Positions 40,801 to 43,800 of a stretch of 64,000 nucleotides of DNA are shown in pieces. The DNA lies in assembly GCF_055900595.2 (NCBI RefSeq), contig NZ_CM148325.1, one strand, 5' to 3'. The position numbers were made by a program. The first letter of the stretch is position 1; every line of letters begins with the position of its first letter.

Positions 40801-43800
40801 TAAATATTTGTATTCGTAATACGTCCTAACAGTTTTAGTAAACAAACTGGTATCAGAGAAAACCACTGAGTCTTCTGATATTATTTTAATCCATGATAAG
40901 TCACATCCTGCTGAAATTTCTATTTGCTCATTGAGCACAAAACCGGAAAGAATTTTAATTATGCAAAAATCAATGCCATTTTTCCATAGTGGACGCAGTG
41001 CAACAGCTGAGTTTAGAGCATCACTAATAGATTTAAAATTACCATATTCCCCAACTGTTATTGTGAATGCATACCTGGAATTAAATACTGCGGCACTCTC
41101 TCCAGAGTTAATAGCTGCAGATATCATGTCATAATTTGATATAAAATCATTTGGCGTGATTATTTCTGCGTTTTTATTGTGCTGTGTTCTAAGTTTTGAA
41201 TTTACATGAACACTTTTAACTGCAATACGGGAGTCGTCAACAAGTATTTCATTACCCTCTGTTGCTAACTCTTGTCTTAACTGATCCGGGTCATACTTCA
41301 GCACATTCGGAAAATAGAACTGCTGCACACCGTACGCATCATAAACAGCCATAGAATGGCCCTGTACAGTAACGAATTTGGCAATCTGTCCGTTATATAC
41401 CGGATATCCAGCAGCGTTAATGATGATTGGTTGCGAAACAGGAACGTGAGATCCATCTTCGTTCTCTACATAAACCTGAATCTGGTTTTCAGGATTTACA
41501 GGGGCAGTATCAATTTTACCGATATAAATTTTGCCATTGGCTACGGCTTTAAAAGAACGCGCCATAGTGAAGAGTTGCGAAGGCATACTCACTACAACAT
41601 TGGCTGTAATGTCTGTCATTTAATTTGCTCCAGATACAAGGAATCGCCGCAGCATTGCCACAGTGATGCATTATTAATCAAACAAAGAGACCACTGTGGT
41701 CTTATTGAGGATGCAACCAGCAGATAATAAGATGCCGATCCACTCACAAAAGCGAGGCATCAAGAATGGGAAGAGATGACCCGCAATTTAATCTGCGGCT
41801 ACCTTACGAATTAAAGGAAAAACTAAAACAGCGAGCCAAATCCAATGGCCGCTCTCTTAATTCAGAATTAGTTCAGATAGTGACTGATGCTGTATCAAAG
41901 CCATCCAAAATTTCAGGCTATCGAGACGATGCGGAACGCATCGCTGATGAGCAGTCAGAGCTTGTTAAGAAGATGGTGTTTGATACGCTGAAGGATTTGT
42001 ACAAAAACCCACCTGATGGTGGGTTCCATTTATTAGTCTTGCTTTGTGGACGGTATAAGGGATGCATTTGCCTCTTTAGGCTTCAAGGTATACATCCCAC
42101 CATTAAATGGATCTACAGCAAGCCAACCAATTAACCCACCAAACACAAGGTTTCCACCAATATACCAACCATTAGCATTGGCTTTGATTGGCAGGGTAAC
42201 TGGTTCGTACCCATCCTTCTCCATAGTGATCTGGTAGCTCTTTTTGCCAAAATAACTACCATCTGACTTGGCAAGAGTTACTCCTTGCGGGGTCTTACCT
42301 TGCGCAACAATCACGCCTGATTCGTCTTTTACCTTAAAGCTCGCACCGGAAGGATTGCTGTTCACTTGCACAAGCTGTGTTTCGTCACCAACAATAGTTG
42401 CGCACCCAGATAACATGATAACGCCAGCAACGACGCCAATAATCCTCTTCATATCAATTTCCATATTTAAAAAACCGGAAACATCCTAATGACAAACCAT
42501 TCAAATGTGAAGTAGGCAAAAGATGTTTACTTTTTTCATGGTATCCTGCTCAAAACTAAGGAGGTTGGCGTGAAGCAATTTCTTACTGCTATGTTCTTAT
42601 TCATATCTTTTGGGGCTACAGCAGAGTGCTGGGTCGTTGGAGATATGCGCGGAATAAGCTATTCAGAACGAAATAATTTCCATCCGGAAGAAGATGGTTT
42701 TAGTGGAACATTCATCATTAAGACAAACGGTGAAGATGCCAGCATCACATATTCTGGGACAGATGCGGGCGGCATGGCTTACAAAGCATTGTCTAAAAAC
42801 TCCATCATAGGAATCGGCGCGAATGGCGAAACTCAACGCGTTATCGACTCATGGGTAATACATCCTACTGGAACAGTTTTAATGTCAAAAACCATTTCCG
42901 GTTATGGAAATATGGATTCAACCAAAGCTTTTGTTGGAAAAGTAAAAAGAAAATGTTAGCGATTGAATCCAATTTCCCATACGTTACTGCTGTGTTGCCT
43001 CAGTAGCAAACAGCGGTCTGATGGCATTCGCAGCGTTATTTATCGCTCTTTCATAGGCTGGTGTTCCTGCTTTGGTGTTTGCCAAACGAAGAAGCATATT
43101 CCTTGCTGCTTTGGACTCATACAAGCGCATCATTGCACCAAAACCAGCCTCAATCCCCATTGATACGCCAAGGGTCGCAGTTGCGCCAATCGTCCTTATC
43201 CTGTTGGCTTGCGATTGCCCCGTCTGAGTTACTACATTTGCGGTGTCTGACCTTGCTGTTTGCTGTAGAACTTCATGAAGAGCATCAAGCTCTTTCATGT
43301 GCTTTCCAGAAAAAATAGTGTTGTAAATTTCACCGCCTGACTGAGATTTCAGCTTATTAACTTCAGTGATGAACTTGGCTGGAGAGTCCCCGGCCTTTTC
43401 CGCTATTTTGCTGACGTAAGCTGCACGCATAGCATCTTTCCCCTTATCATCCAGTGCGCTCCAGATTCGTTTCACGTCAGATGGTTTTCTGCTTAATACA
43501 ACGGTATTTATAAGTTCAGGACTGGCTTCACTGCTTGCCTTGTTGAGCTTGTTGGCAATGTTTTTATTAAGCACCTTATTATAAACGTTTGCATAATCGG
43601 AATTTGCTTTAAGGTATTTTGCTGCGTCTGATGCACCGAGGTTTTTAGCAACTGCGTTACGAAGGTCTTTTGACATTGCATTCTCTACCATATTGGTAGC
43701 TGCTTTTGCCTGGTTGGGGAAGACCATAGCATCTCCCTGAACATTAGATCTAAATGCTGTTCTGTGCTGACGCAAGAGATCAAACGTAACATCCAAATCA

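What the first reader, a model, noticed from the sequence alone, without database searches (positions are those of the whole stretch)
41688..42134. Orphan Mnt-like repressor with a read-through C-terminal extension antisense to the neighbouring lipoprotein gene, plus a candidate operator
The ORF matches P22 Mnt for ~80 aa and then, instead of stopping, continues ~40 codons into the 3' end of the convergent lipoprotein gene. No arc or ant gene is present. A perfect 15-bp palindrome (AGACCACTGTGGTCT, 41688-41702) sits between mnt and the tailspike start. Either Mnt has been repurposed (for example regulating tailspike or moron expression) or it is decaying.
Basis: partly seen in the sequence, partly recalled or inferred. 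Interest (0 to 1): 0.5.

Follow-up and report, generated by a model that had tools for sequence, protein, structure and literature searches.

The report
Frameshifted orphan Mnt repressor and operator
This is the leftover repressor gene (mnt) and its DNA binding site from a well-known phage P22 immunity module, sitting in an E. coli prophage that lost the module's other genes long ago; in this prophage lineage a one-base deletion just before the stop codon adds a meaningless tail to the protein, so the finding is real but ordinary.

Summary
The ORF at 41766-42134 encodes an Mnt repressor that is intact for 80 residues and then carries 42 unrelated residues. The palindrome at 41688-41702 is exact, and the 64-kb window has no arc or ant gene.

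The extension comes from a -1 frameshift. A run of six A is five A here (42003-42007), three codons before the native TGA (42014-42016), which lies in the loop of a bidirectional terminator. It is not a sequencing error: the exact 122-aa product is on at least 24 contigs from independent assemblies, in two host backgrounds. It is a minority allele; only 1 of 98 complete E. coli genomes that carry this segment at full length has it. The tail is not conserved and would be 8-42 aa in other backgrounds.

The palindrome aligns column for column with the annotated P22 mnt operator. Across about 90 loci, Gln6-type Mnt always goes with GACCAC-N-GTGGTC and never with arc/ant. His6-type (P22-like) Mnt carries GGTCCAC-N-GTGGACC wherever an operator palindrome was found, and ant wherever upstream sequence was held. 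Orphan mnt is under strong purifying selection (dN/dS about 0.09), so the class is functional. This allele is a recent lesion in it.

Orphan mnt is already described for ST64T, L and Gally. Interest is low to moderate.

The parts
41766..42134 (+). Frameshifted mnt ORF (122 aa). Codons 1-80 are native Mnt; codons 81-122 are an out-of-frame tail.
   Evidence: PGAP marks the identical sequence in E. coli EC332 as a pseudogene 'missing C-terminus'
42003..42007 (+). A5 homopolymer where relatives have A6. This is the -1 frameshift site. On the minus strand it is the U-tract of the lipoprotein gene's terminator.
   Evidence: alignment with Gally, epsilon34 and EC332; tabulation over about 90 loci; fold
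42014..42016 (+). Native mnt stop codon TGA, now out of frame, in the loop of the terminator hairpin.
42006..42025 (.). G+C-rich hairpin AACCCACC-TGAT-GGTGGGTT. It is a strong intrinsic terminator for the lipoprotein gene (minus strand, followed by U5) and a weaker terminator-like site for mnt (plus strand).
   Evidence: epsilon34 and phage L records annotate terminators at the homologous place
42033..42134 (.). 102-nt overlap of the mnt tail with the 3' end of the convergent lipoprotein gene.
41688..41702 (.). Mnt operator: half-sites GACCAC / GTGGTC around a free centre base.
   Evidence: aligns with the 'mnt operator' protein_bind feature of P22 BK000583; conserved at -78 from the ATG in nearly all Gln6-type loci, with the centre base A, C, G or T; the only copy in the window, in the complete Gally genome and in the complete EC332 prophage
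41705..41733 (+). Predicted Pmnt: -35 TTGAGG (41705-41710), 17-nt spacer, -10 TAAGAT (41728-41733). The Shine-Dalgarno GAGG is at 41754-41757.
   Evidence: column-for-column alignment with the annotated P22 mnt promoter; conserved across 36 distinct spacer sequences; below the threshold of the consensus scan
41710..41738 (-). Remnant of Pant facing the tailspike gene: -35 TCGGCA (reverse complement of 41733-41738), -10 TGCATC (reverse complement of 41710-41715). The start site would fall at the operator edge. The hexamers are poor.
   Evidence: alignment with annotated P22 Pant, TTGACA-17-TATATT; not found by the scan
39562..41619 (-). Tailspike gene (685 aa, Head_binding N-terminal domain), divergent from mnt.
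42033..42452 (-). Lipoprotein moron (139 aa; homologue of epsilon34 gp15 and Gally gp14). It is on the same strand as the tailspike gene and upstream of it.
   Evidence: promoter-like site at 42511..42483

Best explanation
The locus is the remnant of a P22-type immI region ('ant moron') in a Gally/ST64T-like Lederbergvirus prophage inserted between ybhC and ybhB.

Shown:
- arc, ant and sar are absent.
- mnt lies 146 bp from the tailspike start and is divergent from it.
- The single palindrome in that spacer is the orthologue of the P22 Mnt operator, with symmetric half-site changes (GGTCCAC to AGACCAC).
- These changes go with a His6-to-Gln change in the DNA-reading beta-strand of Mnt.
- This Gln6-type orphan mnt/operator pair is widespread and under strong purifying selection.
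- In this prophage lineage one A was lost from the A6 run three codons before the stop. The native TGA in the terminator loop is therefore out of frame, and translation would continue 42 codons, antisense into the lipoprotein gene.
- The allele is real, recurrent and rare, and its tail is not conserved.

Inferred:
- Mnt tetramers bind the operator. It abuts the -35 element of Pmnt and covers the start of the residual Pant-type promoter, and it lies in the path of read-through from the lipoprotein moron. Mnt would thus autoregulate and limit prophage-state transcription into the tailspike gene.
- The frameshift allele is a hypomorph or null. Either mnt mRNA ends at the hairpin without an in-frame stop, giving tmRNA tagging and degradation, or a hydrophobic, Cys-rich tail is added.
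- The loss is tolerated because there is no antirepressor left to derepress.
For: Identity of the gene: Pfam Arc plus the full Repressor_Mnt domain; matches to PDB 1MNT and 1QEY.

Frameshift:
- TACAAAAAACCCACCTGA in Gally and epsilon34 against TACAAAAACCCACCTGA here.
- All 22 other complete E. coli genomes aligned over the full 111 nt have one extra base. Only EC332 shares the allele.
- The window is not EC332. The chromosomal flanks differ by 4-5%, yet 21 kb of prophage differ by one base.
- The exact 122-aa protein is on at least 24 contigs from NCBI drafts and Logan SRA assemblies, with both flank types.
- The repaired 83-aa sequence equals Gally Mnt and is on at least 1000 contigs.
- The same A-run contraction occurs on other backgrounds.

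Operator:
- Alignment to the annotated P22 operator.
- The two classes do not mix over about 90 loci: no Gln6-type locus has the P22-type half-sites or arc/ant, and no His6-type locus has GACCAC half-sites.
- Invariant half-sites with a free centre base, and variable flanks.
- One operator per complete phage genome.

Selection: median dN/dS 0.09 for orphan mnt pairs with dS > 0.1.

Tail not conserved: it would be 8-42 aa depending on synonymous sites of the lipoprotein gene.

Tolerance and tailspike transcription (PMC9928086):
- The Gally delta-mnt lysogen is viable.
- mnt, the tailspike gene and neighbours are induced 6-40-fold in macrophages while the upstream late gene stays at background.
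- Gally's spacer is identical to the window's.
Against: No reads were available, so homopolymer length was not checked at read level.

The Pant-equivalent hexamers are poor (TCGGCA / TGCATC), and the consensus scan finds no promoter on either strand of the spacer. A tailspike-directed promoter under Mnt control is therefore not demonstrated.

In Gally, mnt and the tailspike gene rise together in macrophages, and mnt is near background in LB. That is not the simple pattern expected of repressor and target.

The first 80 residues, including the whole tetramerisation domain, are intact, so the extended protein might still work. The plus-strand terminator has a weak U-tract, so the non-stop-mRNA scenario is uncertain.
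Confidence: 0.78

Rival explanations
1. The A5 run is a sequencing or assembly error at a homopolymer, and the real gene is a normal 83-aa mnt.
For: The lesion is a single-base homopolymer contraction, the commonest assembly error. Only 1 of the 98 complete E. coli genomes that carry the segment at full length shows it. No reads could be inspected.
Against: The identical 122-aa product is called on at least 24 contigs in 29 blocks of independent NCBI draft and Logan (SRA) assemblies. It is present in the window's genome and in EC332, whose chromosomal flanks differ by 4-5%. About 75 neighbouring genes in EC332 are intact apart from one other short partial-gene fragment near ybhB, so that assembly is not indel-ridden.
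Confidence: 0.03
2. The extension is functional. It could be a new C-terminal module, or the fixed form of a programmed -1 frameshift on the A-run stimulated by the adjacent hairpin, giving Mnt a second isoform.
For: An A-run lies directly upstream of a stable hairpin. -1 events recur at the same place on several backgrounds. The tail has a hydrophobic stretch.
Against: The -1-frame continuation varies from 8 to 42 aa among backgrounds and is set by synonymous sites of the lipoprotein gene. The frameshifted forms found are 89, 94, 98 and 122 aa long. The hairpin starts 0-1 nt after the A-run, not the usual 5-9 nt (established knowledge of -1 frameshift signals). None of the 80 IMG/VR loci carries the frameshift. 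The tail has no Pfam or PHROG match.
Confidence: 0.03
3. The palindrome acts mainly as an RNA hairpin, an intrinsic terminator or attenuator for transcription running from the late operon or lipoprotein moron into the tailspike gene, rather than as a protein operator.
For: The scan flags it on the minus strand as terminator-like: 6-bp stem, 3-nt loop, tail CTTTGTTTGA. P22 tail-protein level is reported to be set by termination in this region (Villafane et al. 2008, PMC2629481). Symmetric half-site changes fit a hairpin as well as a dimer site.
Against: The homologous P22 sequence is an annotated Mnt-binding operator. The hairpin is weak (about -9 kcal/mol with flanks, z = -2.1). The T-rich tail is missing in ST64T/L-type spacers, which keep the palindrome. 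The half-site class tracks the Mnt recognition strand, which an RNA-only role would not explain. The two roles are not mutually exclusive.
Confidence: 0.1
4. Orphan mnt as a class is a functionless remnant of a degrading immI region, and this frameshift is just one visible step of that decay.
For: Phage L authors raise this possibility (PMC8022706). The Gally delta-mnt strain has no detected phenotype. Disrupted alleles occur sporadically: 2 of about 60 Gln6-type IMG/VR loci have a stop at codon 53, and frameshifts occur as well.
Against: dN/dS is 0.06-0.09 among orphan mnt genes with dS up to 0.6. About 97% of sampled orphan genes are intact. Operator half-sites and the Pmnt region are nearly invariant, while the rest of the spacer varies and has indels. 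The arrangement persists across many tailspike and moron types.
Confidence: 0.08

Closest known systems
Phage P22 Mnt repressor and its operator Omnt (immI region: mnt-arc-ant-sar)
   Same: Same protein family and two-domain layout: ribbon-helix-helix plus tetramerisation helix, 76% identity. Same position between the gene 16 and gene 9 homologues, and same orientation. The operator is at the same alignment columns next to the same Pmnt/Pant promoter framework.
   Different: No arc, ant or sar. Operator half-site is AGACCAC instead of GGTCCAC. The recognition strand is PQFNLR instead of PHFNFR. The Pant hexamers are degraded. Here the last 3 residues are replaced by a 42-aa frameshift tail.
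mnt-only 'ant morons' of ST64T, ST104, Para1 and phage L (Villafane et al. 2008, PMC2629481; Zaworski et al. 2021, PMC8022706)
   Same: mnt lies alone next to the tailspike gene, with a 136-148-bp spacer, the same Gln6 recognition strand and the same GACCAC-N-GTGGTC operator at -78.
   Different: The C-terminal half is divergent (70% identity overall). The downstream moron differs (orf62 instead of the lipoprotein). Their mnt genes are intact (82 aa).
Escherichia phage Gally (prophage of AIEC LF82) Mnt, and phage vB_EcoP-720R6
   Same: The first 80 residues and the whole mnt-tailspike spacer are identical. The same lipoprotein gene and the same terminator are present.
   Different: Gally has A6 and a normal 83-aa Mnt. 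Its -1 frame would stop after 14 codons. Experimental data exist only for Gally: delta-mnt is viable, and mnt and the tailspike gene are co-induced in macrophages.
P22 Arc repressor
   Same: Same ribbon-helix-helix fold family. The Gln6-type Mnt recognition strand PQFNLR is identical to Arc's PQFNLR.
   Different: Arc is a 53-aa dimer without the Mnt tetramerisation domain and binds a different 21-bp operator. No arc gene or Arc operator is present here.

Membership tests
Mnt repressor family (Pfam Arc PF03869 + Repressor_Mnt PF11423) | N-terminal ribbon-helix-helix (Arc-like) DNA-binding domain | tested here: met
   PF03869 at residues 3-50, E = 1.2e-21; PDB 1MNT match, E = 1.8e-33
Mnt repressor family (Pfam Arc PF03869 + Repressor_Mnt PF11423) | C-terminal tetramerisation helix (Repressor_Mnt domain) complete | tested here: met
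   PF11423 at residues 53-80, model positions 1-28 of 28, E = 5e-18; PDB 1QEY match at 53-81
Mnt repressor family (Pfam Arc PF03869 + Repressor_Mnt PF11423) | Protein of 82-83 residues ending shortly after the helix (KKPT/KKTT-stop) | tested here: not met
   A6 to A5 frameshift gives 122 aa. PGAP calls the identical sequence a pseudogene.
Mnt repressor family (Pfam Arc PF03869 + Repressor_Mnt PF11423) | Cognate palindromic operator next to its own promoter | tested here: met
   Positional orthology to the annotated P22 operator and co-variation with the recognition strand. This is sequence evidence only.
Mnt repressor family (Pfam Arc PF03869 + Repressor_Mnt PF11423) | Sequence-specific binding of the protein to that operator | not testable with these tools
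   Needs EMSA or footprinting with the 83-aa and 122-aa proteins.
P22 immI immunity region | Antirepressor gene ant under Mnt/Arc control | tested here: not met
   No Ant or KilAC homologue in the window; none in any of about 60 Gln6-type loci.
P22 immI immunity region | arc gene and Arc operator between the Pant hexamers | tested here: not met
   The only Arc-like tblastn hit is Mnt itself. The aligned spacer differs from the P22 Arc operator.
P22 immI immunity region | Location between homologues of P22 genes 16 and 9 | tested here: met
mnt-only ant moron (ST64T / L / Gally type) | mnt divergent from and directly adjacent to the tailspike gene, with no arc or ant | tested here: met
   146-bp spacer, as in Gally, ST64T and L
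mnt-only ant moron (ST64T / L / Gally type) | Gln6 recognition strand with the GACCAC-N-GTGGTC operator 78 nt before the ATG | tested here: met
Programmed -1 ribosomal frameshift signal | In-frame slippery heptamer, stimulatory structure 5-9 nt downstream, and a conserved trans-frame product | tested here: not met
   The hairpin starts within or immediately after the A-run. The trans-frame continuation is 8-42 aa and not conserved.

The most novel reading that the evidence does not exclude
The orphan Gln6-type Mnt/operator pair may be a conserved gate on prophage-state transcription of the tailspike gene and the small membrane-protein gene after it. That transcription would be fed by the residual Pant and/or read-through from the lipoprotein moron.

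The A-run at the mnt stop doubles as the U-tract of the moron terminator. It could then be a recurrent slippage site whose contraction both cripples Mnt and weakens that terminator, producing lineages with derepressed tailspike expression.
Probability: 0.12. Interest if true: 0.5.

Novelty: new member of a known kind. Interest (0 to 1): 0.25.

Why it matters
For genome annotation, this ORF should be called a frameshifted mnt allele, not a new fusion protein. The palindrome can be annotated as the Mnt operator.

For phage biology, the comparative data bear on a small open question raised for phages L and ST64T: is mnt without ant a relic or a working gene? Strong purifying selection, an invariant operator, a single operator per genome and a matched change of recognition strand and half-site all say it works, and that it acts only at the mnt-tailspike spacer. 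The frameshift lineage, found in two host backgrounds, is a natural loss-of-function (or reduced-function) variant. It could be compared with its A6 sisters to find what orphan Mnt controls.

Tried and rejected
- I looked for further operator copies that would reveal another Mnt target, such as an antirepressor elsewhere. There are none with up to 3 mismatches to the 15-bp pattern in the window. There are none with up to 2 mismatches to the 13-bp core in the complete Gally genome or the complete EC332 prophage.
- I looked for any Ant- or KilAC-type antirepressor in the window and found none. EC332 and Gally carry a KilAC gene in the nin region, but the window has different nin genes there.
- I assumed at first that the window was EC332, because 1 kb is 100% identical. 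This was rejected: the flanks differ by 4-5%, and the window's chromosomal type matches other E. coli genomes that lack this allele.
- The consensus promoter scan of the spacer found nothing on either strand. Promoter assignments therefore rest on alignment to annotated P22 promoters only.
- Pfam and PHROG searches of the lipoprotein gave only a weak PEGA hit (E = 0.03) and a family of unknown function, so no function is assigned.
- A literature search for Mnt His6-operator contact data found no usable open-access source. The link between residue 6 and half-site bases is my inference from the co-variation.
- Structure prediction of the tail was not run. The tail has no homologues, so a model would not be informative.
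Full report
**What is there.** The window carries a P22-like (Lederbergvirus) prophage next to ybhB and bioA. Its late operon runs on the minus strand: two injection-protein genes at 44822-46237 and 42984-44825, then a variable region, then the tailspike gene at 39562-41619. The variable region holds a 129-aa secreted-protein ORF (42570-42959, +), a 139-aa lipoprotein gene (42033-42452, -) and the ORF in question (41766-42134, +).

Pfam places an Arc-type ribbon-helix-helix domain at residues 3-50 and the complete Repressor_Mnt tetramerisation domain at 53-80. 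The solved P22 Mnt domains 1MNT and 1QEY match. The repaired 83-aa form is 76% identical to P22 Mnt. The similarity ends at Lys80, and 42 unrelated residues follow. The palindrome AGACCACTGTGGTCT is exactly at 41688-41702. P22 Arc and Ant find nothing in the window except Mnt's own N-terminus.

**Cause of the extension.** Phage Gally and phage epsilon34 read TAC AAA AAA CCC ACC TGA (…YKKPT-stop). The window reads TAC AAA AAC CCA CCT GAT…, one A short. The run is 42003-42007. The native TGA is at 42014-42016, in the loop of the hairpin AACCCACC-TGAT-GGTGGGTT (42006-42025).

On the minus strand this hairpin followed by the U-run is a textbook intrinsic terminator for the lipoprotein gene. The epsilon34 and phage L records annotate terminators at the same place. 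So the A-run of mnt and the U-tract of the neighbour's terminator are the same bases. The next in-frame stop is at 42132-42134, which gives a 102-nt antisense overlap with the lipoprotein gene.

**Is the frameshift real?** Among 5,426 complete E. coli genomes, 191 carry this segment and 98 at full length. Only one, EC332, has the A5 allele, and all 22 other genomes aligned over the full 111 nt have one extra base. PGAP marks the EC332 copy as a pseudogene.

The window is not EC332. Chromosomal flanks differ by 4-5%, while about 21 kb of prophage (39000-60000) differ at one position. The window's bio region is identical to that of other E. coli genomes that lack the allele.

The exact 122-aa product is in the 15-billion-protein collection on at least 24 contigs from NCBI drafts and Logan assemblies of SRA runs. 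Both the window-type and the EC332-type flank occur among them. About 75 surrounding genes in EC332 are intact apart from one other short partial-gene fragment near ybhB. An assembly artefact is therefore very unlikely, although I could not inspect reads.

The repaired 83-aa sequence is identical to Gally Mnt and is on at least 1,000 contigs, so the frameshift is a minority allele.

The same A-run contraction is found on other backgrounds:
- a Salmonella-type spacer with a different terminator loop (L096);
- three draft genomes with a different tailspike and an operator variant (L098-L100);
- an A7-to-A6 contraction in a KKTT-type allele (L097, at low coverage).

The run is thus a recurrent mutation site.

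**Is the tail functional?** I simulated the same -1 shift in about 90 related loci. The continuation is 8-42 residues long and takes many forms. The frameshifted proteins actually found are 89, 94, 98 and 122 aa. The length depends on synonymous sites of the lipoprotein gene, whose product is 99% identical between Gally and the window. The tail has no family match. It is hydrophobic with three Cys. There is no sign of selection on it.

**The palindrome.** The P22 reference record annotates a protein_bind feature 'mnt operator', AGGTCCACCGTGGACCTATTGAG, next to Pmnt and Pant. In a multiple alignment the window's GAGACCACTGTGGTCTTATTGAG occupies the same columns.

I fetched 80 IMG/VR loci with Mnt relatives and tabulated them with the other loci. 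Two classes appear, and they do not mix.
- **Gln6 class.** Mnt proteins starting GRDDPQFNLRL have (A/C)GACCAC-N-GTGGTCT 78 nt before the ATG in nearly every locus. They never have arc or ant. The tailspike start is 136-148 nt away, or about 425 nt in some loci.
- **His6 class.** Proteins starting ARDDPHFNFRM, like P22, have GGTCCAC-N-GTGGACC at 73 nt wherever an operator palindrome was found (five loci showed none). They carry ant wherever upstream sequence was held, and most carry arc.

Across 36 distinct Gln6-class spacers the half-sites and the stretch down to the mnt ATG are nearly invariant. The centre base takes all four values, and the tailspike-proximal part varies and has indels. The symmetric half-site changes travel with a change in the DNA-reading strand. 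That is what a cognate repressor-operator pair looks like.

There is only one such site in the window, in the complete Gally genome and in the complete EC332 prophage. A 7-N-7 palindrome alone is not rare (8 in the window against 4.7 in shuffles). The homology and the co-variation carry the argument.

**Is orphan mnt a relic?** Median dN/dS is 0.09 for Gln6-class pairs with dS > 0.1, and 0.06-0.07 at dS about 0.6. About 97% of sampled genes are intact; two have a stop at codon 53. The arrangement persists across many tailspike and moron types. The class is maintained by selection.

The literature already describes mnt-only 'ant morons' in ST64T, ST104 and Para1 (PMC2629481). For phage L it leaves open whether the gene 'acquired another function or is a remnant' (PMC8022706).

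**What it may regulate.** By alignment with the P22 annotation, Pmnt is TTGAGG-17-TAAGAT (41705-41733). The operator ends 3 nt before its -35 element. The Pant equivalent on the other strand is TCGGCA-17-TGCATC, a poor match, with its start at the operator edge. The consensus scan finds neither promoter.

The lipoprotein gene lies on the tailspike strand, upstream of it. Read-through of its terminator would therefore cross mnt in antisense, then the operator, and enter the tailspike gene.

Gally's spacer is identical to the window's. Published RNA-seq for Gally shows the last late gene before the moron staying at background in all conditions. The moron genes, mnt (log2 fold change 5.3), the tailspike gene (4.4) and the gene after it (4.9) rise in macrophages. 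A delta-mnt lysogen is viable with no survival phenotype (PMC9928086). So the tailspike gene can be transcribed from the prophage independently of the late operon, and mnt is not needed to maintain lysogeny. This fits the absence of ant.

That Mnt limits this transcription is my inference. The co-induction of mnt and the tailspike gene and the weak promoter hexamers are reasons for caution.

**Likely consequence of the frameshift (inferred).** If mnt mRNA ends at the hairpin, it has no in-frame stop, and the product would be tmRNA-tagged and degraded. If it reads through, the mRNA is antisense to the lipoprotein message and the protein gains a hydrophobic tail after an intact tetramerisation domain. 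Either way, reduced function is the simplest expectation. The near-identity of the prophage in two divergent hosts shows that the phage spread after, or despite, the lesion. The deletion also shortens the moron terminator's U-tract from six to five.

**Verdict.** This is a real, rare and recurrent frameshift allele of a known orphan repressor gene, together with its correctly guessed operator. It is an ordinary lesion in a known kind of module. The modestly new points are the two specificity classes, the selection on orphan mnt and the single operator per genome.

Noticed in passing
window 39000-60000 versus 30655-38900: The prophage differs at one base over about 21 kb from that of E. coli EC332 (NZ_AP039429), while the adjoining bio/ybhB chromosome differs by 4-5%. 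Essentially the same phage, frameshift included, sits at the same ybhC-ybhB site in two divergent host backgrounds. This implies recent horizontal spread.
   Followed up: partly
window 41643-41667 (minus strand): There is a conserved hairpin in the tailspike leader (CUGUGGC-AAU-GCUGCGG), about 25 nt before the Shine-Dalgarno sequence. P22 and ST64T have the same hairpin with wobble-compatible changes (CCGUAGC…GCUGCGG). It contains CACTGTGG, which repeats the operator core. It could be an attenuator or a processing site for tailspike expression.
   Followed up: partly
window 41766-41810 (Mnt residues 5-12): The DNA-reading strand of this Gln6-type Mnt (PQFNLR) is identical to that of P22 Arc (PQFNLR), whereas P22 Mnt has PHFNFR. 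The operator half-site changes from GGT to AGA at the same time. This is a natural specificity swap worth testing against the Arc and Mnt operators.
   Followed up: partly
window 42033-42452 (-) and 42570-42959 (+): Two morons of unknown function lie here. One is a 139-aa lipoprotein (PHROG 6823, weak PEGA hit; homologue of epsilon34 gp15 and Gally gp14). The other is a 129-aa signal-peptide protein (PHROG 2651) found on at least 1000 contigs. The Gally lipoprotein homologue is among the most highly expressed prophage genes in LF82 and is induced in macrophages (PMC9928086, supplementary table).
   Followed up: partly
window 39266-39562 (-): A 98-aa hydrophobic ORF lies directly after the tailspike gene (PHROG 1443). 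It is 89% identical to Gally gp17, which is induced about 30-fold in macrophages together with mnt and the tailspike gene.
   Followed up: no
loci L098-L100 and L059: An operator variant with a changed right half-site (CGACCACCGTGGTAT) occurs both with frameshifted mnt (three draft genomes) and with intact mnt (L059). L062 combines a half-site change (GTGATC) with a stop at codon 53, which suggests occasional joint decay of the gene and its site.
   Followed up: no
window 60864-62315: The nin region here encodes a Ser/Thr-phosphatase-like protein (246 aa) and a NinG-like protein (201 aa). EC332 and Gally carry a KilAC-domain antirepressor gene in the nin region. The two otherwise near-identical prophages are mosaic at this point.
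   Followed up: no
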